A DNA stretch of 49,916 nucleotides, filler included, from Sphacelaria rigidula (GCA_964200075.2; 2 parts of 2 records of this genome joined end to end with filler, not necessarily neighbours in it); one strand, 5' to 3'. Shown: positions 16,914-44,200, counted from the first letter of the whole stretch. Notes: generated by a model from the letters alone, not told the origin. Program-made: numbers and translations.

Positions 16914-17743
16914 ATGTCTTTTGGCCTTGCGTGCACGTACGTTGTGGCCTCGGTTTTCATTGCCCTTTTTAATCAGCGAGTATTCGCAATGTTCTGGAGA
17001 CACGGTCAAGCGGAGGAGAAAGGAGTTCTACGGGCGGAACAGGGCTACATTGTACATGCTGTCCTTGGAAACTGCCGACTCGTCCAAGGAGTTCGGAGGC
17101 AAGTGTACGATTTCGCGAGCAGGAACTGTGGTCGGTACACTAATTCAGAGGACCGAGAGGAATCAATTGCGTACAGGGGCGCAAATACCTCATCTCGGAC
17201 AAGATCTGGCTCAGCCACTACCAAGCCGGGAAGGGAGGTCCTGAAGAATCACCGCCAAGAAGCTTCTCGACAACATCTGTTGTTTCCACAGGGGATACCA
17301 TGGCCATCCACCAGTCAGTTGAAGATCCATTGGTGGTGAAACAGAGTTGTCACATGTACGGGAAAAGGCAACCTAACCGGGACGATTTGCCGAACCACGT
17401 GACTAATGTCAACAATCGGGTATGCCTCAGCCCCACCCTTCACGTCTTGTACGATGGGTACGAGAATGGAATGGCTCCGGTGTTCCGAATGAAGCCCGTA
17501 GAAGTGCACAGGGAGCCTGTGCAGGTCATAGGTGGCGGTGTAACGGAAGTGAGGTACAAGGTTGACCTTCTGATCGAGTTTATGTCTATAGAGGCCACAT
17601 CGATGTACAATGGACGCTTGAAGGAGAACAACATCCGTAGATCCCCGACGGAGTTTTTGACGTTTGTTCACGTTCTGGATCCCGACGAGTTTTCCAGGTT
17701 CATGATGTGGAAGTACGACGACACGACCAAGAAGTGGCCGTAA
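16914..17743 (+). pseudogene. Crinkler-like HNH-type nuclease/effector, copy 2 (out-of-frame junction near 17144-17200)
   Basis: Paralogous motifs QSVE..SCHM..NNRVCLSPTLHVLYDG..RYKV..RLKE..FVHVLDPDEF..WK; its N-terminal frame (GVRRQVYDFASRNCG) aligns with copy 1 (GIRGALLQLASKHCG). Confidence 0.6.
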
Positions 17744-17744
17744 C

Positions 17745-18645
17745 GTGGTTTGCTGTCGTACATGTCAACGCTTAGGTATTTCGGATGGTGTGCTTCGCTG
17801 ACATGGTGCTTGAAAACAAAGTTTGTTTTTGATGACATGTCGCACATGTCGACGGTTTGGTATTCCCAATGGTTTGCTTGGGCAGCATGGTGGTAATGTT
17901 AATCATGTGAACGATTTGGTGTTCCGGATGGTTTCCTTTGACAACATGACCGTAATGTTGTGGATGTCATTGTCTTGGTTTTCCGAATGGTTTGCTTGGG
18001 CAACATGACCGCATATGTTGATAATGTCAATGATTTGGTATTCTCAATGGTTAGCTTGGGCAGCATGAGCATAATGTCGCACATGTCAACGCTTTAGTAT
18101 TCCCAATGCCTTCGTTTGTCAGCATGACCGTAATGTCGTACATGTCAATGTATTGGTATTCCCAATGCGTTCGTTTGGCAGCATGACTACAATGTCGTAC
18201 ATGTCAATGATTTGGTATTCTCAGTGGTTAGCTTGGGCAGCATGATCATACTGTCGCACATGTCAACGTTTTAGTATTCCCAATGCCTTCGTTTGTCAGC
18301 ATGGCCGTAATGTGGTTTGCTGTCGTACATGTCAACGTTTTGGTATTCCCAATGGTTTGCTTGGGCAGCATGACCGCATATGTTGATAATGTCAATGATT
18401 TGGTATTCCCAATGCGTTCGTTTGGCAGCATGATCATAATGTCGCACATGTCAACGTTTTAGTATTCCCAATGCGTTCGTTTGGCAGCATGACCACAATG
18501 TCGTACATGTCAATGATTTGGTATTCTCAATGCGTTCGTCTGGCAGCATGACCACAATGTCGTACATGTCAACGTATTGGTATTCGCAATGCGTTCGTTT
18601 GGCAGCATAACCAAAATGTCGTACATGTCAACGACTTGGTATTTT
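17745..18645. repeat. 59-bp tandem repeat array, about 15 copies, with an internal hairpin
   Basis: CATGTCAA recurs at 18082, 18141, 18200, 18259 and at 18447, 18506, 18565, 18624 (59-bp period). Confidence 0.93.
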
Positions 18646-19084
18646 CGTTGGGTGTTTTGGGAATACCCCGGCAGATAATAAAAAAGGAGCGAAGAAAAAA
18701 ATTGAAAAATGAAAAAAAAATGTCCGTGCCGGGAATCGAATCCACTCCATACGTGAATAGACTTTAGAAGGCGAAAATTGGAGGATATTTCGACTTGAGC
18801 AGTCATCGTGTGTGTTGCACGCACTTTGAACGGGGCTTAAATGCTTACCCACGCTGGTCGACGGGCGCCTCCTGGAGGTGTGTCGTTAGTGCAACAACGT
18901 TGGATGTGGTTGGATTGTTGGAACTCTTGCACTAACGTCGTCGATCGGTGAAGCACACTGGTCATTTGTTTGTCATTTTTTTTTCGACTTATCTAAATTT
19001 TCGGAAAAGCTTTATTTAGTATCAACTCGTTTGCGTCATGAGGAAGAGTGGCCTTCATGTCCTACATGCCCTGTAAGTCATCAT

Positions 19085-19434: not shown

Positions 19435-21301
19435 TCATTGGACCACATACTTGGCCGGCCTGGTGAAATCCGGGGCTAGACCCTGCTGGATCCACGCAAT
19501 CCTCTCCTTCACCACGTTGGCGACGTCCCGACAGACTTCCTTGCCCGCACCGGTAACCTCCCAGTACTCGTAGTATTCTTCCTGGACTACTTTACAGACC
19601 GAGTTGTGGGTATCGTGTCCCCCCTGGACACGAATGACGTAGGTCCTTCCTTCACATCCGGCTTCCTTGGCAATTCTCTCCAGACGTGGAGTGTCGTCCT
19701 CGTGATTTGAGTCTTCGTCGTACTCGATGTGGATTCCGAAGCCAAGGTCTTGCACTTGCCACTTGTAGAAGATGTCCGGGCGCTTGTTTCCTAACGATTT
19801 GGCTTCACCAACGACAGACTTGTCGAAGAAGGTCTGCGAACAGTCCTCGAGTAGTTTGTAGTAGTACTTCTCGCACTCCACCCTGAAGGCGCCTTCAGAT
19901 GTGAGTGTCACGACTTCCTTGAGTCCAAAGTGCTCGAGAAGGCTCTTGACCTCTTCGTTCTTGCAGGCCATGAGCGCATCTTCGATGAGAATCCTCCGAG
20001 CGAAGGAGCAAATCCTTTTCTCGAAAAAATCCGATCCTTTGTCCTTGTGGTCTGGGTGGAAGAAATTGGCTATAACTCCTTCTCCGTACATGCAGCACGC
20101 CATGGCACACTTAGTCTCGACCACACGTAAGACGTATCCTTCCTCCCTGTGTCGAAGGCAACGTGTGGCAACTTCTCCAGGAAGCCCGTAGCTTGCACTG
20201 AGCTCGCAACCGTCAGCGTGGTCGCACAACTTTCGGAAATACATACCGTCCTCCTTGTGCTCCTTGCATCTCGTCTTCTTGTCCCCGCGAGTTCCAAATG
20301 TAGGCCTCAAAGAGCACCCGTCAAACTCACACGTCCTGGTTTCGTCGGAAACCTTGGTCGGGGAGTGAGTTTTGCAGTACCTACCATTGTCGTAGGACGC
20401 GGTGACTTGGCATCCGTCCGCCGAACAAAAGTTCGTATTTTTGGTCCAGTGAACGAACTCCTTCGGAAGACCTTGGCCCACAAGGGACTCTGCATGTGGC
20501 GTGCAAAAGTTTTCCGAGCAGCCTTCAATGGTGACATGCCCTCTCGTCTTGCACCCTTTGTACACACAGAGTCCCTTTTTGCTGAGGTTGACGTGGTTCG
20601 CCTTCTTGTGCTCACTGCAGCTCGTGAAGTCTTCTCCAACAACCCCGTAGCCAATGCTGACCTTCTGGCAGTCATTGTGGAAGCAGCAAGGTATTCCGTC
20701 CATGTTCAACGGTGTTGTTTCCGTAATGAAGTTCTTTATCTGTTCGGAAACCTGGTGCAAGAACTTTTTCGCGACGTTTCCTGATTCATACTTCTCCTTC
20801 TGAGCCATCATCGCGGACTCGTTTGTCACCAACCTAACATCAGGTTGGATAACTTCGGGAAGTCGACACTCGTTGTCCTTCCTGTCACAGTGATTCCGCA
20901 GGTTCTGCTTGGATGAAAAAGGTATCCCACACACACAGACATGGTCCGATTTTTCATGCTCCCTCTTTTTGTGGTACGCCAGCTTGGGTTTTGTGTCGAA
21001 GATCAACCCACAATCAACACGGATACTCTCTGCCGAGGTCGTGCTTCGCGTCTCTGTGGTTCTCCATCTTGTCTTTGTCTTGGAACTCCTCTCCACACTC
21101 GGGACATGGAATTCTTTTCGACTTCCTCTTCTTTCCCCGGTGCCTCTCCTTCACGTGAATGTCGCGACTAGATTTCGAAGAGAAGAGTGATCCACATTCC
21201 GTACAGGAATACTTGATTGCCAGGATACATTTGTCGGTATGGGTCTTCAGCGAGGATTTGGCTTTGTAGCCCTTTGAACACTTCGGACAAATATAGGACA
21301 T
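19435..21301 (-). pseudogene. C2H2 zinc finger + EsV-1-7 Cys-repeat + C-terminal PD-(D/E)XK/Vsr-like endonuclease, frameshifted at about 21016
   Basis: Five C2H2-type fingers, with the fourth (YPC/DCG..H..H) broken by a frameshift; Cx3-4C...C..H repeats (e.g. CEFDGCSLRPTFG..RCKEHK); KRPDIF..IEYDE..H nuclease motif. Confidence 0.8.
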
Positions 21302-21446
21302 TGTCCAAAGAGTGTTATGAAAGATAGTGAACAAAATATTCGACCAAATCTAAACGATTTTTTATCGACGGCTTGTGAATTACTTTTCGTAGATACTCAA
21401 AAAATTAATGTTGGGAGACAGTACTTACTTATTACCTGCTTTAATC

Positions 21447-23360
21447 ATGCCCGCTGGCGGAGGCGTAGATTTGAATTGCGCCTAAGAGGATAGTGCGGTG
21501 TCGCAAGGCTCCATTTGCCACTTCGAGGTTTAACTCGGAGGTACTATTCTAGTCCGGGCGTCCTCGTTCTTCACAGTGAAGTGGGGGCATCTAGTTCCGG
21601 GTCCCTCCTGGAATGCGGTTGATAATTTCAAAATTATGAACCAGGGCAAGGTTTGTGAAAACGGTCAAAGCTAACACTGCGTTGGGTAGACCGTCGGTGA
21701 ATCCGTGTCGAAAGACGCGTGAAATATTTTTTTCCCAGAAAATATGTATTCATCGCTATCGACTGGGGCACGAATCGGTTCCTAAAGACTTCTGTAGTCA
21801 ATGGAGCTCAATGTACAGTCAAGTCCTTGGTGAATCCGGGTAACTCCGGGCAAAGCCAGGGCCCCATGTGATCGGATGAATTGAAAATTGAAGTCCGGGA
21901 AGCATGGGGGAGGGAGAACAATAGCCTTGTATTTTAGTAGGTTCTCCCTTTGAAGGTTTTGTAACCCATCTTCATCACATTTGTGGAATACAAAACTTTC
22001 ACTTGAATTCAGATAGCGGCGTCGGGCGTCAAAATGTCCACTTCAATGGCAACCCTGACATGACTTTGTTCAAGACGATGCACAAGCGTTACACGAACTT
22101 CGCGGAGGACATCGAGGAGAACGACTTCTCTGCGGGCACGGTTGGCTTCGGTCAGAAGGTGTCTGCGAACGTTTCGCGTTACGGCGACCTCGTGTCGGAC
22201 ATCATGCGAGCCTTCCCCCTATCGAGGCTTCCACCACTGTGCTGGACGCCTCGGGCAATACCGTGGCGGACGCGGACAAGGCTGCGTACTGAGTGAACGC
22301 CATCGGATACGCTATTATTTCGGAGGTCCAGATCGAGATCGGCGGTACGGAGGTGGACACGCTGTACCCGGAGTGGATGTTCTTCTGGGAGGAGATGACC
22401 CAGCGCCCGGGCGCTCGCCTCGGTGAGCAGATCGGGAAGTTCGCCTACTCGGCGGACGTGGAGGAGGACATGATCGAGTTCGCCTCGATGGCCCGCACCC
22501 TGTACGTGCCTCTTCCGTTCTGGTTCAACAAGTACTTCATGGAGCACGGTCTGTCGATCCCCCTGATCGCCCTGACCTACCACGAGATCAAGGTCAAGGT
22601 GACCTTCCGCCCCCTGGCCGAGTGCTGCTGCGTTGTCTACAGGGACACCGACGCCATGCACGGCGACTTCTGGGCGCTCGCCGAGAACAAGATCCCCCTC
22701 AACACCACCTCGGGATCCCCCCTCGTCGCCTCCGACATGGACGCCAAGCTCCTCATCTCCTACGTCTACCTCGACGTCGAGGAGCGCCAGGCCTTCGCTG
22801 CCGTCGAGCACGAGTACCTCATCACCGGAACTCAGCGCCAGATGCACGCCATCACCTCCGCTGGATCCGCATCCGACCAGATCAAGTTGTACTTCAACCA
22901 CCCCTCTAACTGCCTCACGTGGTTCGTGCGCCCCACCGACTGGATGACCAACCGCCGCCGCTACTCCGTCGGACACCAGGACTCCTTCGACTTCTCCCTC
23001 AAGAAGGAATCGGACGTCTCCGTCTGGGGTGACGTGACTGATTCTGTCCGTTGTGCCTCTCTGAGTCTGAATGGTCATGCAAGGTGGCCTGACAACCTCC
23101 CGGGCATGTTCTTCCGCCAGGCCCAGCCCATCATGAAGTGGCCCAACGTGTCCAACGGGTACATGTACGTCTTCTCCTTCTCCTCGCAGGGAGGCGTCTG
23201 GCAGCCGACCTCCACCCTCAACATGTCGCGCATCGACCACGTCCAGCTCGAGCTCAAGTACGGCGCGAACATCCCCACCTCCGACGTCTTCGTCTTCGCT
23301 GAGTCCTATAACCTGCTCATCGTCAAGGATGGGATGGCCGGAGTACGTTACAGCAACTAA
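21447..23360 (+). pseudogene. MCP: NCLDV major capsid protein; exon 1 21447-21466, exon 2 22006-23360; two frameshifts and one nonsense codon
   Basis: Reconstructed MPAGGGVIQIAAVGRQN..GNP..FK..KRYTNFA, GDL, IGG, LYVPLPFWF, FNHP, LNMSRID, YNLL..GMAG..YSN. Lesions at about 22020, about 22207 and TGA 22290-22292 (W of YWVN). Confidence 0.93.
21467..22005 (+). ncRNA. Group I self-splicing intron (IE-like), 539 nt, no internal ORF
   Basis: P1 GGCGU/GCGCC with U.G at the splice site; P10 21469-21477 with 22006-22014; P3 21650-21657/21769-21776; P4 21661-21666/21689-21694; P6 21695-21702/21748-21755; P7 UCGACUG/CAGUCA; P8; P9.0; terminal G at 22005. Confidence 0.9.
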
Positions 23361-23952: not shown

Positions 23953-24818
23953 ATGTATCAATCCGCGGCAACTATCCAGAAACGATTCGAAATATCAAGA
24001 TCTACTCTTTGCAGCTGGGCGAATCATGGCCTCGTCCGAGTCAAACGATTCGATGGAGGAAAACGAATCTACCACATCAGAGACATCGAAACAAAGCTCG
24101 GAGGAGGAGTCAACGAAACAGCGGAAAAAAAAAAAAAGTCATCTAAGCAAGGGTCTCCAGTACAAAACAAAAAGAAGACCTCGAAAGGCAAGTGCAAAGC
24201 CTCAAAGACAAATACCCCGACCACGTCATCTACAAAGACATCGGCTCAGGGCTCAACTTCCGGAGAAAGCGCTTTGAAGCCGTTTTGGACGGAATCTTCA
24301 GAGAGGTTATCGGAGAGGTTGTCGTCACCTACAAGGATCGGCTCTGTCGGTACGGATTTGAACTCTTCGAGTTGTTCTGCAAACACCACGGGACGAAGAT
24401 CGTGGTTTCGAGTTCTAGAGAAACTACCGACAACCGCGCAGAACTTGCCGAAGATCTCCTTGCCGTGTGTAACTTCTTCGTCGCCCGAAACAACGGAAGA
24501 AGAAGTCGTCGGAGGAAGAAAGCTGGAGCTATTCCCATCGCAGAAGTGGAAAAAGACTCTCAAAAAGTGGATGGGAACAGCGAGGTGGACGTACAACAAG
24601 TGTCTGGACAAGTTCAAGAAGAAGAAATGTCCCATGTCCAAGAAAGCCTTCACAAGCAGAGTCCTTGGAGCTCACAACCACGGGCAGATGAAAAAGAGGA
24701 CCGGGAAAACGAAGCGGAAACGGGGACCAAGAAGAGGAAGCTGGAAGAAGACCAGTACCCAAAACGACAGAAGTTCCAAGACTTCGTGGGTTCTGGAAAC
24801 ACCGCAAGAAGTTCGTGA
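23953..24818 (+). pseudogene. tnpA: IS607-type TnpA (MerR-like HTH + serine recombinase), frameshift in an A13 run and TAA in YARVSS
   Basis: HTH MYQSAATIQKRFEISRSTL..GGKRIY; then in the -1 frame VI*ARVSSTKQKEDLERQ, DIGSGLN, YKDRLCRYGFEL, ELAEDL. Recognisable homology ends near 24510; the frame stays open to 24818. Confidence 0.88.
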
Positions 24819-24927: not shown

Positions 24928-25027
24928 NNNNNNNNNNNNNNNNNNNNNNNNNNNNNNNNNNNNNNNNNNNNTTAATTAATTAANNNNNNNNNNNNNNNNN
25001 NNNNNNNNNNNNNNNNNNNNNNNNNNN
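24928..25027. other. Artificial scaffold linker (N44-TTAATTAATTAA-N44)
   Basis: Exactly 100 bp, with a six-frame stop palindrome in the middle. Confidence 0.95.
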
Positions 25028-27045
25028 GTCGGCTGGGAGGTTCTCTCCCATGATGGAGCTGTTGACGACCTTGATGCGATCTTGCAGCACTACAGTACTC
25101 GTATGAGTACCACACACGCGGCCATTCGGCTCCTGTTCGGAAATCCTATCGTGATTTTCATCCCCTGGAGGGTAAATGACCCTCTGGAGGGTAATCCTCT
25201 GGAGGGCATCTGATGCTCCAGTGAGTACTCCTCGAGTTTCCCGAATCAGTACAATATATACATGACCATATCGCTGCTGCTGTGAAATGCATACCCCAGG
25301 AATCTTGTGGTACTTTATCACCCGGCGCGNNNNNNNNNNATGCAAACCCCGCACAACACTTATTTCCAGCTACCCCCGGAACCCTGCAGGAAAGAGCACG
25401 GGTTGGGCACAGGCGCGGCGGCGGAACCACGCGGGGTATATAGAGTGCGAGGAATGACCGGCTTACTGCCTACACACTCGAGTGATCATGGACAATGCAG
25501 CCATAGACGAAGCTGCGCCCGCTGTTCAAGTCATTCGCACGTCGCACTATGAACAGAAAACATATATAGTCCTGCGCTGTTCGTACTGCACTTTGTCCGC
25601 TTCCCAACCACGTTCTACTGACGGCAATTGTGCGCATGTTGTAGGCTTTTACTTATTATGCTAGCATAACTTCTGGCATAATTCCACCTTCGTAGAATAA
25701 TAGCATAGCGTTTCAGCAAGTAGCATAATCGAGCATAATTTTTTTACCGTGAGGTGGGATTACGGGTCTAAATGCTGGCCTGCTGTGATATTTTGGGCGA
25801 AAAACTCTGATATCATCGACTGCGGGTCTGAGATACGTGTATGCTCTGGAACTAGTCATTTAAACTGCCAGTCTGATCGATCGCAGGTCAGAAAACGGTT
25901 TTTTTTATGAAAGCGCACGACACAAAACATGAACACCTACGATGTACTTACAGTCTGTAGTCTGTAGTTCATGGCGTACAGCGCACAGCACGCAGCAGAT
26001 CTCAGCTTCCAATTTTTTTTGTGTGTTTTGGCTTTGTACTTTCTCTGGCTCCTTCATTCTTCTTGTCTACTCTATCCTAGTATTTTTCCCAATTTCTACC
26101 CCCATGTGTGTTTCCTTTTTTTCACCTTGTTTCCTAGGTCACACCCATCTCACGACCTCGGCTGGATTCGAAGCGGCATCGGCTCATGCGAGACAATATC
26201 AACCTAACAATCATTCATCAATTGAATACTAAGTTTTCGTTTGTCGTTGTCCTTGGACGAGAAATGCAAAACTAATTTTTCTCAATCTTTGCTAAAAGCA
26301 CCCCGAACACCGGCTTGACCGTTCACTGCGTCTTGGGCATAGTATCGTATTGGTACAAGTTCGGGCGCAAAAAAAGTGCCATCCCAAGCTAACGGTACGG
26401 TTCTCGGACAAAATTGTCATTAAAAGGTGCAATAAGGGATTTCGACGCTCGTCAAAACAGGGAATTCTCTTCGGACAGGCGACATGGAAACACACATATA
26501 ACATATTCTTCTTTTTATCGCCCAAACACACTCGCACCGTACATCAGGGTTCTATCCAAGTGTAGTTGAAAGCTACAGGCCAGCAGTGTTATACAGAGCA
26601 CAACGCAGTACCTCATGATACAGCACAGCACAGCACAGTATGAAACGTGCTTTACGGACAACACGTCATCTTAGCGATCCAGTAGATACAGCAGCGGAAC
26701 CTCCACATCGAAAAACATGTTCCTGTTTGGTGCACAGTACATGGTGAAATATCTCTCCCGTAGGCTGCACAGCTACGCCGTACATGTTCGGGGCGAAATT
26801 GGTGATACAGGTGTTTTCTTCAGAGCGTGTTTCAGTTTCGTTATTCTTGGGTACATCTATCATGAGACAGCGGCTGGACCCCTGGGGGGGCAGTTAAAGT
26901 GCGACAATCAATCAATCAATCAATCAAGGTGTTGGAAAAACAAAGCAACACGGTGGACAAGGCATCATAACACTTTGGGACGACCTGCTGGCTGTGCCCA
27001 AGCTCAGTGTGATTGAAGAACGGGGTTGCCAGTCGCAGTGCGCAC

Positions 27046-28740: not shown

Positions 28741-31700
28741 CTGAGCCACGGGTGAACATCGATCAAATCAAGCTCGAAAAACGCATACACGTTGCGTTGC
28801 AGACATCATGCCCACATGTGCAACACTACCAACAGCATGCTCTGCTCCTGAGGTGCTGTCGACCTGTACATTGCGCTCCATCATATGCCCCTTTGCAACA
28901 TCGCTGTCTCAGCACCCCTCAGGATAGCTGCAACGTGATCGCGACGGCCAACAGTACCTGCCTTGTCCTGAGGAGAAAAATCCGCGTGGATGACGAGCCT
29001 AGCCACTGGAAACTACAAAATATACGCTTGTGGAGCAGCGAGGACTCCAGTAGATTCCACGCGGAGCAGCGTGGTAGACAATATCGTACATTGTTCAGGG
29101 TTCAAGAGACACGGTGCGAAGTTATTCTGCTCTTTTCCTTCCTTCGTTTCCCGTGAGCGCCCTCTACCCTACAGTTATTACGGTTTCCCCGACTCCGTTC
29201 TGGATGAAGCTGCCTCCTGCGAAATTTATAAAATGCCTGGTGAATATCACTTTTGATATAATGATCCTCGCTAGAGACGACACGTCGCGCGCTCTAACTT
29301 GTACCGATGTGTTCCTGCACCCTAGCACTGGGAACGACCGGAGTGTCTTCTTGTGCGCGTCGTGCAAAATTCGAGGAAAACCCATGTTCATGCTCCACAG
29401 CTCAAGGAGCTCTCGGCTCGAAATTGCCCCGCGGGAACACAAACGGGAGCGAGCACAGTTGCCGCTCCCCGATGGTCTAATTTGTACTGTGCGCCTTCAA
29501 ACCGATAAAGGTGGAGTTCGAAATTCGACGTGATTAGTACCGAGGTTTAACCAAAGCAGGCGAAGTACGGGAGTGCTGGTCATGATCCAATTCACAACAC
29601 CAAAATATCAGACATGCACCAGGGGAGACATGACTTGATCCCTCACGTCTACGGATTGGTCCCGAGGAAGGATAAGATTGAAGAATATTCAACGTGAATC
29701 ACCAAGCACCTCTGCAAAACTTGAAGCATTTGCGGACTAGTTACGCATCAAAAATGGGTGCCTCAAAGTCTGCGCATTAGGGGCTGGAGGGGTACTCATG
29801 ATTTTGCATGCCGTTGTCGTAAGGCTTTTTACCTCGCATACCTACAAAGCTGGGACGGAGCACGCCGGGATTTCGCCGGACCAGACTTGCAATCACCAAG
29901 CGCAAAGCGTCGTGATGTGTTCGGCGAGTCACATGAAGGGTGAGCTACACCCTGCGAAGATTGTTCGGCCCGAAGCGTACTGGTTCTTGCATATGAATGA
30001 CAGCCTCGAACAAGTTGCTTCACATATCTCGGTTGTTTCGCCACTTGCAGATACAGTTGCGCATCGGGGGGGAGGGGGAGAGGGCTTGGAGGCGGGAAAA
30101 CAGAACGGGAACGAGTTGCTGAAAAAATTAACGCCAAAAACACTACATCACAGCACTTGAGATACAAGAGTATAGGCAGTGGAGAGTGAGTGCATCTTCT
30201 TTGCCCTGCGTGGTTCATTGCACCCGTGCCACCACTGTACTGTCTGCCGTATTCGTTTGCCTTTCCCTGTTTTCGAACAAATCGAGTTTCCATGTTTAAA
30301 TACTGTGGAAAAGCTCAAGACGAAAAGCGGTGTGCTTATATGATAGGTTGAGCGAACTTGAAGTCGTGGTGTTTCCATGCTGCTGGCGGCGCCCGCGGCG
30401 TCTTCGAGGCTTGTCCTTGTGCTGTGGCCGCTGGCCGTATAACCACGTACAATACCCAACTACGCCTGCAATCTGCGGTCGGCTCATCCCTATTCCAGTA
30501 TTGTGCCTGTCCCAATAAACTCAAGCTTCAGGTGTATATTGTGTGCGGTTTTGTGTGCGGCGTTTCAAAATACAGGGGATCTGAAGTGCCAGGGAGTCAC
30601 GGTCCTGCTCATGGACACGTCGCGCGTGCACGCTTTTGTGAGTTGGCCATACATCAACCGGTAAGAGTACTTATGGCCCATTGTGTCACTGCACGGTGTT
30701 ATATGATTGTGCTGTGCTGTCATGGACGGTGGTCAGAGCAACTTGTACTGAAAGTGTCACCTGTACGGCTCGACAGCACCCCCAGCATGCACTTTAATGA
30801 AGATATGTTTTTCAAAACAGCCCAATTTATATACCCTGCACTAACCACAGCAGTACCAGAAACAAAAAAATCGCCATGTGCAGAGTATATATTCTCCTAC
30901 ATTTTCCTACATTCTGGCTTCAGTACGCACAATTGGCGCGAATCGTATCCATCTCATCCCTTTATTCGTGCGCAATGCGAGCAACGTATAAACAAGTTCC
31001 CCATCATAGTTGCAATAATCATAAGACAGCAAAACATATCCACGATAACCACGTCTCCAGAAAAGCCAGTCGGAAAACCAAGTGATCGGCTGGCTGTTCG
31101 ACCTGAACCGAAAGCAAAACCACTTCCGATTATCGAAAGATCCAGGAAGCGCCGTGCTAGTGTGAAAAAGGAAAATAGTACTTTTCCTCGAAAACGTGGC
31201 TTGAACAGGGAAAAGTGATCACTTGGATCTTGCCGATTTTCGTCCATAGTCACATCATGAAGACGTCGATGAGAAGCAAATGTGTGCACACCATTCTATC
31301 GTGTCTATTGATAGGATCACCTTTAGCAGGGATCCCCAGCACGAAGTGCGCGCATCGGGACATCGCCACCAATGCGAGGTGATGTCAGCAGGTCTTCTCA
31401 CTCCGAGTCGATAACGAGGCTAGCCATGACGGCAGGAGTGACTGGAGGAGCATCCGTGTCTACAGCGATCGGTACCATCACGGCAGGTGGCTTCATTGGG
31501 CGCACTTCGTCCGATATGATGCAAGCACCATCAATCGGGGTAGGCGATTGTATGTGTTTCTCGCCCCCAAATGTACCCTTCGCCTCCGTATCATTGCTAC
31601 CTCCTTCGTCGATGCACCGAATCCGTGCCAAGCCAGGCGTATTGTGTACGGGTTTGCGACTTGAAAGCAGCCGTATGCGCAGCAAATCCAGAGTTTTTCA

Positions 31701-41228: not shown

Positions 41229-44200
41229 TTGTTATACAACTTGATCGTCGCAATTAATGATACCGCCACCGTGTGTTGCAATATTGTACATCATCCCTAC
41301 AAAAACTCTGTACCCAACAGTGCTGCAGCTACGCGCCGAATTGCCTTGTATTACACACTTGACTACAGGTCAAACAAGTCTTTTGGGTCTCCCCGAAATC
41401 TCAAATAGTGCCTATTTGGGTAGCTTTAACGATCCGAACGGGAGACAGAGAAGCATCCACTCTCGCTACCAAATGAAGGGTGTCTCTCTCTCTAGTTGGC
41501 GACACCGACCCTGGCAAAATTCTACCAGTCCAGCATGGTGGTTCTCGTAATGCTCTCAACTTTTCGAAACATCCAATTATGTTGGCCTTGTTGGTCTTTG
41601 TTGCCCAGTTCTGCGCGAAGCAAGAATACCCCTCTGCGAAAGTATCACATTCGAGGCACATCGGGGCCTGACCACTGTGTAACTAGGCACGATGTGCTTT
41701 GTTTGACGCGAAATCGTTCAGTACTAGGGGAGTTTGATACGTAGTGGCGATTCGTCTAACTCTGGGAAATGTTTGAAGGTACTTATAATTTCAGCACGAA
41801 ATTCACGCAAGGTACCGCACACCGATATGCTTGGCCTCCATCGTTGGACCATCGCATGTCTTGGTATCGACTTTGTACTTGTCGCCATCAGGATAGGACA
41901 TGGGACCAACTGCTATATATAGTCTGTAATACGGTATAACATTGGTCTGTGTCGGTAGAGAATGACACGACACAAGAAGCAAATATTTCGCGGATTTGCG
42001 ATGTTGGGTGTCTTAACCGAAAGGGTCGACCCATTTCGGACAACATAGTGCAGCTCGCCCTTCAAGCGACTCGCCAAACCGCAGCTTCGCGCTTGGTGTT
42101 TGCGAGGCTTGTCCGGCGAAATCCGGCGTGCTCCGTCCCGGCTTTGTAGGGATGCGAGGTCACTGGTCTTACGAGTGCGGCATCAAGATCATGAGCACAT
42201 CCCCCCCTCTAGGGTGCGGCGCGGTCCAGGAAACTCCAAAATTCAGCTGCCTCACTACTTTTCAAATCACCACATCAATTTGACCGTTTTGACTCGCGGT
42301 CAACATGTACCAATTTTTCAACAGTTTAAATTCTTGCTCCAACTTCAGCAACACATTTTCAAGGCGTGAACCGACTTCATTTTCAGAAGTCTGATCACAT
42401 CTGGCAGCTTGAAAACTCTAATTTAGAGTACCCTCTCCCCTCGACCATGTTTGGGCTTACAGAAAAAATGGGTGTGGCGTCGAAGCAGGACACACCACCT
42501 GTCGGTTGTAGCATAAAGTTAGCAAAAGTCATTTCTTGCCACTAAGGTGGTGCCAACGAGCGTTGGTCTAAGCGTCACGTGTACTGCAGCGAAAATTTTC
42601 AATCCGCCGCCTCGGTTCTTTTGTTGGTGAATTACAACTGATTGTTTCACGTTGACGTGAAAGCGGCGTCTTAGCCTTTGGAACATTCAACTGTGCAGTA
42701 AGAAGACTGTAGACCGCTTGGGCCCTGTTCAAGGCATTACAACCTCAAACCAAGGACATAATTCACGGGCTAGATTTACGGTGTGCGCAACTGCGATGGT
42801 GGTGCGGGCGGGTTGGAGTCAGTATTTCTTCATCTTGATTTCCTCTGAGCCTTCGCTTTTCTTTATGCTCATAACTCATCAGCACGAAACAAAGCCTGCG
42901 CCCTCTTCATCTGTCGGACTTTCAGCAAGTGATACAAGCAGACAAAACCGTAAACGTCAATACCTTCAGTTTAAAGAAATTTTCTGAGCGTTTCCCCGGC
43001 GATCTTTTTTGGTTTGGATACTGGTATGAACGCCTCCGTGTTACCGTAAATGATACAGTAACGAGTGTGGTGGATTTCCGGATTGTAGGCTGCACGCCAG
43101 ATCCTCACTTCGTCTCGACAAACTGCAGCATGCAGCGCGTACTACCGACTGTAAGAGTGACTGCAACATATTACACATGTGAATGGCAAAGTATGGTCGA
43201 TGCTTTGGAGCAAAATGACGTGGCGGTGGGACCAGGGAAGGCATACTTTGCCAGCGCTCTGGCGTTTATCACCCACCGCGCGCGGACCAGCTTCAACGTG
43301 TTGCGAGAGACTGCTACTCTCGCACTACATCGCTTCCAATGTACCTGAGGCAATGTATAGAACCTTGACATCACCCGCCTTCTACTGCAAAAGGTTTAGC
43401 GGCTTCATGCAAACTTCATCAACGTAACACAATGGTTGAAGTCTAATGAACTCTCGGGAAACTTGTCTCAGAGTCAAATTCGATTTGACTCGTATAAACG
43501 TCTTCCAGGCAGCTACATTCTGAATACCGCTGTGCTGGCATCAAATACGGAAATCCCCTGCGCGACGTAGTCAAGAAAGGTATGCACGCAAAGCGTTTAT
43601 GGGATTTTACCCATCCCGCGAATTAAACAACGCGAGAAAAGGTACGCAACCGTACAAAAAACGGTACATCGAAGCAAACTTGACTCAGCTTTAGTGCTAG
43701 GCTCGTATCCCACACTAACTGTAGTGTTGTGCTGGCTTTGAAACACAAAGAAAAGACTGGTTGACAGAATTTCACCTCCAAATGAGTACGAGTAAAATAT
43801 ACAGCAAATTTGTAACCGCTTGTTCGTCAGAGGCTCAAAGGATTTGCATTCGCCAGGAAGAGCAATTTGCGGCGAAATCAACGTGTTCACTGTGATGCTG
43901 TTGGTGAACGTTTTGACCGCACCTTCTATGCTCAAACACGTCGTACATCGTGGAGCACATCTCGACCCAAACGGTGCACGGTTCGGACAAATCATCGCAG
44001 GTTCGAATCACCAAATCCACGATTTTTCAGGCCTTACTGCTCGAAAGAAGGAAAAAAGTTGACCGCTGGTCAAGAAAAGGTCTCCACGTAGTTTTTGCGT
44101 CATTCCACGTGCCTGGGTTGCGCGTACCTGGTACCTGGGTTGCAATGCTGAAAACAAAGCTCAATGATTGATTCGTTTGGTACGAATCAACTACACTAAA

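What the first reader, a model, noticed from the sequence alone, without database searches (positions are those of the whole stretch)
21467..22005. Structurally complete group I ribozyme splitting the capsid gene within codon 7
Seen: P1 with the U.G splice pair, a 9-bp P10, P3, P4/P5, P6, P7 with bulged C, P8, J8/7 CAAUGUA, several P9 hairpins, P9.0 and terminal G. Removing it gives GGC GT|A ATT CAG (MPAGGGVIQ), which the ORF track misses. Known: group I introns occur in some giant-virus genes, but nuclear ones are essentially confined to rDNA. Inference: an apparently intact ribozyme in a decayed, probably chromosomal, viral gene.
Basis: partly seen in the sequence, partly recalled or inferred. 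Interest (0 to 1): 0.75.

Follow-up and report, generated by a model that had tools for sequence, protein, structure and literature searches.

The report
Ribozyme intron splitting phaeovirus capsid gene
A self-splicing-type (group I) intron really does interrupt codon 7 of a broken giant-virus capsid gene of the brown-alga-virus kind; it belongs to an intron family that is common in giant-virus capsid and DNA-polymerase genes, so it is a solid but fairly ordinary example of a known kind.

Summary
Bases 21467-22005 (539 nt) interrupt the seventh codon of an NCLDV major capsid protein (MCP) gene.

For a group I intron:
- Two intron-less relatives read straight across the junction.
- A complete 154,641-bp phaeovirus-like record carries a homologous 453-nt intron at the same base.
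- I found a family of 18 distinct related cores in viral contigs. They sit at three MCP sites and one DNA polymerase B site.
- On these cores the P3/P7 pseudoknot, P5, P6 and P8 covary strongly: 24 of 43 pairs have changes on both sides, and 97% of cells pair. P4 never varies on both sides, so it is uninformative.
- The internal guide sequence matches its own 5' exon in 8 of 8 introns, always ending in a U.G pair.
- One public run holds a transcript-sized contig joined exactly at the predicted junction.

Against or untested:
- Rfam's only group I model (RF00028) hits neither this intron nor any relative.
- A generic five-helix descriptor is not significant by itself.
- Splicing of this copy is untested.

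The host gene is dead, with two frame breaks and a stop. Chromosomal location cannot be shown from the window.

Verdict: a genuine group I intron and a new member of a known kind. This scan has noted similar giant-virus capsid introns on other DNA.

The parts
21447..21466 (+). MCP exon 1: start codon, six codons and two bases of codon 7. Its last six bases (21461-21466) form the 5' strand of P1.
   Evidence: tblastn of the intron-less L001 MCP: residues 1-7 at 21447-21467, 100% identity. Sequence.
21467..22005 (+). Group I intron, 539 nt, with no ORF of note. It ends in the terminal G at 22005.
21469..21483 (+). Internal guide region: P10 strand 21469-21477, which pairs with 22006-22014, and P1 strand 21478-21483.
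   Evidence: Nine P10 pairs and six P1 pairs. The fourth P1 pair is C-G here and G-C in the FsV-like record.
21487..21647 (+). Peripheral 5' domain: P2 with two inner hairpins, one closed by a GNRA loop, then a four-pair stem (21552-21555/21644-21647) that encloses three hairpins.
   Evidence: Compensatory changes in P2 (2 pairs), an inner hairpin (1) and two of the three hairpins (1 each) between the window and the FsV-like record.
21650..21821 (+). Catalytic core: P3, J3/4, P4, P5, P6, P6a plus a window-lineage extra hairpin, J6/7, P7 with a bulged C, the P3 3' strand, P8, J8/7 and the P7 3' strand.
   Evidence: 18-sequence alignment A4: 43 pairs, 97.0% of 762 cells paired, 24 pairs changed on both sides. 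Coordinates.
21822..22004 (+). 3' domain: P9.0 (21822-21823/22003-22004), P9, P9.1, and two further hairpins (about 21910-22000) that the FsV-like intron lacks.
   Evidence: P9.0 changes from G.U to C-G, P9 has 1 compensatory pair and P9.1 has 3.
22006..23360 (+). MCP exon 2, broken. Frame changes lie near 22019 and near 22207, and an in-frame stop at 22291-22293. The frame is open from there to the natural stop.
   Evidence: Pfam Capsid_N and Capsid_NCLDV. tblastn finds three frames. Gaps relative to relatives.
19435..21096 (-). Neighbouring ORF with EsV-1-7 cysteine-rich repeats, which marks the segment as phaeovirus-like.
   Evidence: Pfam PF19114, E 1.7e-21.

Best explanation
Bases 21467-22005 are a genuine group I intron that encodes no protein. 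It belongs to a family that has spread among the MCP and DNA polymerase B genes of phaeovirus-like and other giant viruses.

Mechanism, inferred from the anatomy:
- The guide sequence at 21478-21483 pairs with the last six exon bases to give the U.G splice pair.
- An external guanosine bound at the G-C pair next to the bulged C in P7 attacks after 21466.
- P10 (21469-21477 with 22006-22014) and P9.0 then bring the terminal G at 22005 into the same site.
- The exons are joined, which restores codon 7 and the conserved N-terminus.

In this window the intron is a passenger. Its host capsid gene is inactivated by two frame breaks and a stop. The ribozyme shows no lesion and would probably still splice if transcribed.

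Shown: the structure, its conservation and covariation, the exon-matched guides, the intron-less alleles, and a joined form in a related virus. Inferred: catalysis, and the competence of this particular copy.
For: 1. Intron-less relatives L001 (70% aa identity) and L018 (73%) read the same N-terminus without interruption.

2. A complete 154,641-bp viral record (L002; MCP 85% identical) has a homologous 453-nt intron at the identical base, and removing it leaves an intact frame. It is the only copy in that record.

3. Window against that record: 133 modelled pairs, 99.2% of 264 cells paired, and 12 pairs changed on both sides, including P1, P6 and P9.0. Slid controls give 0-1 such pairs and 0 of 500 shuffles reach the observed value.

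4. Family of 18 distinct cores. Of 43 core pairs, 97.0% of 762 cells pair, and 24 pairs (124 cells) change on both sides. Slid controls give 3-13 pairs (9-39 cells), and 0 of 500 shuffles reach it. P3 has 4 covarying pairs and P7 has 3, both 100% paired. The G-C pair after the bulge is kept in 18 of 18.

5. In 8 of 8 introns at four insertion contexts, the guide pairs with its own 5' exon for 6 of 6 pairs starting at a U.G. Two polymerase introns differ by a synonymous exon change matched by a change in the guide.

6. Family members sit in conserved coding sites: the MCP N-terminus, five codons before the MCP stop, and DNA_pol_B.

7. Run X9 holds a 1592-nt contig (depth 13.7). It starts 4 nt before the start codon and joins 21467 directly to exon 2 of a related gene, keeping the three residues VIQ. 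The same run holds intron pieces at depth 2.5-3.8.

8. The fold has z -5.78.
Against: - Rfam RF00028 gives no hit at any threshold tried. This covers the window, the FsV-like locus and whole record, 20 related loci at E<=1 and L109 at E<=10. Subtype models could not be run.
- A generic P3-P4-P6-P7-P8 descriptor is not significant on this sequence alone: 24 of 250 shuffles scored as well.
- P4 never varies on both sides (5 of its 6 pairs are invariant, one varies on one side), so it is uninformative.
- X9 is only guessed to be RNA. Its joined contig could be an intron-less DNA allele, and its own intron ends were not covered.
- No self-splicing assay exists.
- The structures were derived from these same sequences, so the percentage of cells paired is inflated by construction. 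Only the both-side changes and the slid controls count as evidence.
Confidence: 0.8

Rival explanations
1. It is a group I intron by descent, but this copy is a dead fossil. It keeps its shape only because the viral insert is young, and it would not splice.
For: The host gene is already broken in three places. The window lineage carries extra hairpins in P6 and after P9.1 that the FsV-like intron lacks. There is no RNA cover of this exact copy.
Against: The window has the family consensus at every invariant and nearly invariant column of A4, and all 133 modelled pairs are standard pairs in the window. The extra hairpins are themselves well paired and are shared by a 97%-like copy in run X3.
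Confidence: 0.12
2. It is a spliceosomal intron removed by the host nucleus, using the GT at 21465-21466 and the AG at 22011-22012. A 2026 paper describes phaeoviral insert genes, including the MCP, as having spliceosomal introns.
For: A GT and an in-frame AG exist at those places. PMC13236599 (passages read) reports RNA-seq-supported introns in 14 genes of an Ectocarpus viral insert, MCP included, with host-like splice sites.
Against: That splice would delete three conserved residues that intron-less relatives keep. The FsV-like record has no in-frame AG there. The joined contig in X9 keeps those residues. A spliceosomal intron has no need for 24 covarying core pairs or exon-matched guides.
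Confidence: 0.03
3. It is a non-splicing structured insertion, a mobile repeat or regulatory RNA, that simply disrupted the gene.
For: RF00028 is negative throughout. Related records carry several copies clustered around the MCP. The gene here is dead.
Against: Removal restores the frame to the base in complete viral records, at four different coding sites. Each copy carries a guide complementary to its own upstream exon. A joined form exists.
Confidence: 0.04

Closest known systems
Group I introns in giant-virus MCP genes (Faustovirus E12, PMC6247863; Mimivirus L425 intron 1, PMC2688009; passages read)
   Same: The host gene is an NCLDV major capsid gene. The boundaries are not GT-AG (here the intron starts AG and ends TG). 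The introns have small or no ORFs, gene callers miss the true protein ends, and several introns can sit in one capsid gene in relatives.
   Different: The lineage differs (phaeovirus-like, latent viruses of brown algae). The Faustovirus introns were found with Rfam, and this family is not. This copy sits in a dead gene of what may be an inserted viral genome.
Chlorovirus self-splicing group IB introns (PBCV-1 a125l TFIIS-like gene; Yamada 1994 and Nishida 1998 as cited in PMC7019647; passage read)
   Same: A group I intron in a protein-coding gene of an algal large DNA virus, with presence/absence polymorphism between related viruses.
   Different: The gene and host lineage differ, and the subgroup here is not assigned. 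I could not read the two primary papers (not held; Nishida 1998 recalled only).
Rfam Intron_gpI (RF00028)
   Same: The same defining architecture, identified by hand: P1 with U.G, the P3/P7 pseudoknot, the P4-P6 domain, P8, and a terminal G.
   Different: No match for the window or for 21 related loci. There are large insertions between P2 and P3, in P6, and after P9.1.
Introns of reactivating Ectocarpus viral inserts (PMC13236599; passages read)
   Same: An RNA-seq-supported intron in a phaeoviral MCP gene.
   Different: That paper calls the introns spliceosomal. I could not see the intron coordinates. The readable spreadsheets hold none and the PDF supplements are unreadable here. Whether it is this intron is therefore open.

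Membership tests
Group I intron | P1: an internal guide sequence pairs with the end of the 5' exon, with a U.G wobble at the cleavage site | tested here: met
   Six pairs ending in U.G at 21461-21466/21478-21483. Own-exon P1 is 6 of 6 in 8 of 8 family introns, with compensatory exon/guide changes.
Group I intron | Terminal G at the 3' end, positioned by P10 and P9.0 | tested here: met
   G at 22005 and at L002:2705. P10 has 9 and 10 pairs. P9.0 changes on both sides. One relative, copy B of the 335,593-bp record, has no G where frame and P10 predict the 3' end, which is unexplained.
Group I intron | Core of P3-P8 and P4-P6 domains, with P3 and P7 forming a pseudoknot | tested here: met
   43 pairs on 18 sequences: 97.0% of cells paired and 24 pairs changed on both sides. 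P3 and P7 are 100% paired, with 4 and 3 covarying pairs.
Group I intron | Guanosine-binding G-C pair in P7 next to a bulged nucleotide | tested here: met
   The bulged base is at 21760, followed by a G-C pair that is kept in 18 of 18 sequences. Binding itself is not testable here.
Group I intron | Match to a curated covariance model | tested here: not met
   RF00028 gives no hit. The 14 subtype models are not available here. RF00028 is reported to miss introns that subtype models find (PMC6125680).
Group I intron | Precise excision and exon ligation in RNA | tested here: inconclusive
   Run X9 has a 1592-nt contig joined at the predicted junction in a related gene, but its RNA label is a guess. 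There is no in vitro assay.
Spliceosomal intron | GT-AG boundaries whose removal restores the conserved reading frame in all copies | tested here: not met
   The only GT-AG option deletes three conserved residues and is out of frame in the FsV-like record.
Phaeovirus-like viral DNA | Phaeovirus marker genes and closest MCP relatives | tested here: met
   EsV_1_7_cys E 1.7e-21. The MCP is 85% identical to the 154,641-bp record. Helicase, kinase, topoisomerase II and Erv1/Alr genes lie to the left. Insertion in a chromosome is not shown.

The most novel reading that the evidence does not exclude
Phaeoviruses, which as I recall carry no RNA polymerase and are transcribed in the host nucleus, depend on ribozyme splicing to make their capsid. 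In the 335,593-bp and 49-kb records the capsid message would need three such splices, including one across an 11-12-nt micro-exon. If so, at least some introns reported as spliceosomal in reactivating brown-alga viral inserts are in fact group I. Brown-algal chromosomes then carry many protein-gene group I introns of a divergent subclass that Rfam cannot see.
Probability: 0.35. Interest if true: 0.55.

Novelty: new member of a known kind. Interest (0 to 1): 0.4.

Why it matters
The MCP is the standard marker gene for phaeoviruses and for inserted viral elements in brown algae. An unrecognised intron at codon 7, plus two more in relatives, makes gene callers report truncated or wrong protein ends. 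In L002 the ORF track starts at an internal Met.

The family is invisible to Rfam's group I model, so automated annotation will keep missing it.

Group I introns in nuclear DNA are otherwise known almost only from rDNA (general knowledge). Inserted phaeoviral genomes would be a second, viral, reservoir of them. They also offer a natural test of ribozyme splicing in nuclear messenger RNA.

None of this changes what group I introns are understood to be.

Tried and rejected
- **Rfam.** The gathering scan of the window gave 0 matches. The E<=10 scan of 21300-22200 gave 4 chance matches and no group I. The same negative came from 14 loci, the whole FsV-like record, 20 related loci and L109.
- **Own genome.** It is not held.
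- **Metagenome scan.** An 18-nt core word gave 13 loci that share only the word. I treat them as chance.
- **24-nt exact word.** It gave 0 hits in viral contigs.
- **Generic five-helix descriptor.** Its optimum equals my model in both introns, but 24 of 250 shuffles score as high. Topology alone proves nothing.
- **Run X18 (RNA-seq).** It covers only exon 2 from 22039 on. Its loose upstream ends are shown for only 30 letters, so no junction could be read. The lack of intron cover there is not evidence.
- **Run X4.** It holds only identical intron fragments.
- **Supplements of PMC13236599.** The spreadsheets list MCP gene ranges but no introns, and the PDFs are unreadable.
- **Yamada 1994.** It is not held.
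- **Literature.** No paper on group I introns in phaeoviruses turned up in searches. Subscription journals, including the two phaeovirus genome papers, are not covered.
- **Earlier scan notes.** There are none for this genome or sequence.
- **Right half of the window.** 1 of 27 ORFs has a weak kinase fragment, so host versus decayed virus stays undecided.
- **Helix coordinates.** I took the coordinates from the stored structure instead.
- **Subgroup assignment (IA-IE).** Not attempted, because no models are available.

Full report
**What is there.** The window's left half carries giant-virus genes. They include a helicase, a Ser/Thr kinase, topoisomerase II, an Erv1/Alr oxidase, an ORF with EsV-1-7 cysteine repeats, and a major capsid protein (MCP) gene (Capsid_N and Capsid_NCLDV).

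The MCP start codon is at 21447. After 20 bases the reading frame is lost, and it resumes at 22006.

**Independent check of the junction.** Two related viral contigs have no insertion and read the same N-terminal residues straight through. These are L001 (MCP 70% identical) and L018 (73%).

A complete 154,641-bp viral record (L002) has an MCP 85% identical. As I recall, that length is the one published for Feldmannia sp. virus 158. It carries a homologous 453-nt insertion at exactly the same base. Its exons join into an intact frame, and it is the only copy in that record.

**Structure.**
- a six-pair P1 ending in U.G;
- a nine-pair P10;
- P2 with a GNRA-capped inner hairpin;
- an eight-pair P3 that crosses P7;
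- a three-A J3/4;
- P4, P5 and P6, the last with a GNRA-capped extension;
- P7 with a bulged C before a G-C pair;
- P8;
- a seven-base J8/7;
- P9.0, P9 and P9.1, plus two more hairpins;
- a terminal G.

The RNA is far more stable than shuffles (z -5.78).

**A negative control that matters.** I wrote a generic descriptor for P3, P4, P6, P7 and P8 with the usual junction lengths. Its best solution in both introns is exactly my hand model. However, 24 of 250 dinucleotide shuffles scored as high. Finding such helices in one 539-nt sequence is therefore not evidence. The case rests on comparison.

**Comparison with the one orthologue.** The model has 133 pairs in 22 helices.
- 12 pairs change on both sides and stay paired: P1 (1), P2 (2), inner hairpins (3), P6 (1), P9.0 (1), P9 (1) and P9.1 (3).
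- 6 pairs change on one side and stay paired.
- 2 cells at hairpin tips are unpaired.
- Partners slid by 1-3 columns give 0-1 compensatory pairs, and 0 of 500 shuffles reach the observed value.

P3, P4 and P7 were identical in the two sequences, so they were uninformative at that stage.

**A family.** Scanning IMG/VR with a 17-nt word from J3/4-P4 and a 14-nt word from J8/7-P7, followed by blastn, uncovered many relatives.

A 335,593-bp record has three copies in its MCP gene, and so does a 49-kb contig. As I recall, 335,593 bp is the length of Ectocarpus siliculosus virus 1. The copies are arranged as follows:
- two lie in tandem within the first codons, separated by an 11-12-nt micro-exon; the second is the orthologue of the window's intron;
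- one lies five codons before the stop.

More distant members lie at the end of other NCLDV MCP genes (L033, L034, L052, L089) and inside DNA polymerase B next to its YGDTDS motif (L054, L109).

From these I took 18 distinct cores and aligned them (A4). Results for the 43 core pairs:
- 97.0% of 762 cells pair.
- 24 pairs (124 cells) change on both sides.
- Slid controls give 3-13 pairs (9-39 cells).
- The covariation score is 0.470, against at most 0.125 in the slid controls.
- 0 of 500 shuffles reach the observed value.

By helix:

| Helix | Pairs changed on both sides | Note |
|---|---|---|
| P3 | 4 | 100% paired |
| P7 | 3 | 100% paired |
| P8 | 5 | |
| P5 | 4 | |
| P6 | 3 | |
| P6a | 5 | |
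| P4 | 0 | five pairs invariant, one varies on one side |

The G-C pair after the P7 bulge is kept in 18 of 18. The rows are related, and the structure came from one of them. The compensatory counts and slid controls are therefore the meaningful figures, not the percentage paired.

**Guide sequences follow their exons.** I could place both ends of eight introns, spread over four insertion contexts. In 8 of 8, the segment just 5' of P2 pairs with the intron's own upstream exon for 6 of 6 pairs starting from a U.G.

Mismatched intron/exon combinations mostly give 3-5 pairs. The exceptions share the same exon or pair through wobble.

The window and the FsV-like record differ by a synonymous exon change matched in the guide. 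So do the two polymerase introns.

P10 has 9 pairs in the window and 10 in the FsV-like intron, against their own 3' exons. It is shorter elsewhere, at 3-6 pairs.

**RNA evidence.** Run X9 is labelled RNA only by a guess. It holds a 1592-nt contig at depth 13.7 that starts 4 nt before the start codon. It matches 21443-21467, continues with 27 letters of a diverged exon-2 start, and then matches 22033-22400.

It therefore carries no intron and keeps the residues VIQ. The same run has two contigs inside the intron (21632-21915) at depth 2.5-3.8. The transcript-like length and start suggest a spliced message, but an intron-less DNA allele is not excluded.

Run X3 holds a copy about 97% alike that includes the intron.

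PMC13236599 (passages read) reports an RNA-seq-supported intron in the MCP of a reactivating Ectocarpus viral insert and calls the introns spliceosomal. I could not see its coordinates.

**The covariance-model test.** Rfam RF00028 hits neither the window nor any of 21 related loci.

I do not regard it as refuting. Nawrocki et al. (PMC6125680, passages read) state that no single alignment such as RF00028 captures group I diversity. In their search RF00028 gave no significant hit, while the IB4 and IA3 subtype models gave 95. Subtype models are not available here.

**Rivals.**
- A GT-AG reading (21465 to 22012) is in frame in the window. It deletes three conserved residues, is out of frame in the FsV-like record, and disagrees with the joined contig.
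- An inert insertion does not explain the exact restoration of the frame at four coding sites, or the exon-matched guides.
- Whether this particular copy is still active is open. It has the family consensus at all invariant and nearly invariant core columns.

**State of the host gene and locus.** Relative to relatives, the MCP has a one-base gap near 22019 and a seven-base gap near 22207. It also has a stop at 22291-22293 where relatives have a sense codon. The frame is then open to the natural end.

Just downstream lies a broken IS607-type transposon. The remaining 25 kb has almost no recognisable coding sequence. 'Decayed' is confirmed, and 'chromosomal' cannot be decided here.

**Novelty.** Group I introns in giant-virus genes, including MCP genes, are in print for chloroviruses, Mimivirus and Faustovirus. 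This scan's earlier notes list many in NCLDV MCP genes on other DNA, including the site five codons before the stop and micro-exons.

I found no paper that mentions them in phaeoviruses. The subscription journals that hold the two genome papers are not covered.

Hence this is a new member of a known kind, of moderate interest. Its practical consequences are for annotating phaeoviral MCP genes and for covariance models of group I introns.

Noticed in passing
L145:1-1000 and L146:470-1040 (335,593-bp viral record); L149:800-1835 and L148 (49-kb contig): The MCP genes of these two phaeovirus-like records carry three homologous introns. Two lie in tandem in the first codons, separated by an 11-12-nt micro-exon, and one lies five codons before the stop. 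The window and the FsV-like record have only the middle one.
   Followed up: partly
L149:809-1301 (copy A) and L145:478-1000 (copy B of the 335,593-bp record): Copy A has no obvious P1 with its present 5' exon. Its guide-position segment would fit the exon of the site near the MCP stop instead, which hints at transposition between sites. Its ends are ambiguous by one base. Copy B of the large record has no G where frame and P10 place its 3' end. Both points are unexplained.
   Followed up: partly
L054:1-1412 and L109:1-614: Members of the same intron family split DNA polymerase B right after the Asp of the YGDTDS motif. Their guides differ by one base, which matches a synonymous exon change.
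   Followed up: partly
L033:919-1413, L034:985-1413(-), L080:1-519(-), L089:1-474(-): Next to the distant introns at the end of the MCP lie ORFs with a treble-clef zinc finger (DUF4379) and DUF7487. They may be intron-associated homing-type genes.
   Followed up: no
window:23752-24975: Remains of an IS607-type transposon lie directly after the MCP. They comprise a Resolvase domain (24192-24815, E 2.6e-09) and the OrfB/TnpB helix-turn-helix, split over two frames. Short N runs follow at 24928-25339.
   Followed up: partly
L002:2761-4068: In the complete FsV-like record, plain ORF calling starts the MCP at an internal Met, 27 residues short. The intron hides exon 1.
   Followed up: yes
L146:472-620: Earlier scan notes describe a short stand-in tail and stop at the start of some capsid-end introns in other giant viruses. 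The intron five codons before the MCP stop in the phaeovirus-like records has no such tail. Read in frame, it runs about 46 codons before a stop.
   Followed up: partly
window:13750-15384 and 17735-18680: An ORF is dominated by a long pyrimidine-rich 3-nt-periodic repeat, which reads as an acidic low-complexity protein on the minus strand. A separate array has a 59-nt period.
   Followed up: no
window:27572-27878; 29808-29908 with 42084-42183: A 132-nt inverted repeat is 91% complementary, with a 43-nt spacer. A pair of 61- and 41-nt inverted arms lies 12 kb apart in the gene-poor right half. They may be transposon ends.
   Followed up: no
window:22040-22400 in run X18: An algal metatranscriptome holds related MCP exon-2 contigs at depths of about 1000. 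This suggests active infection by related viruses in that sample.
   Followed up: no
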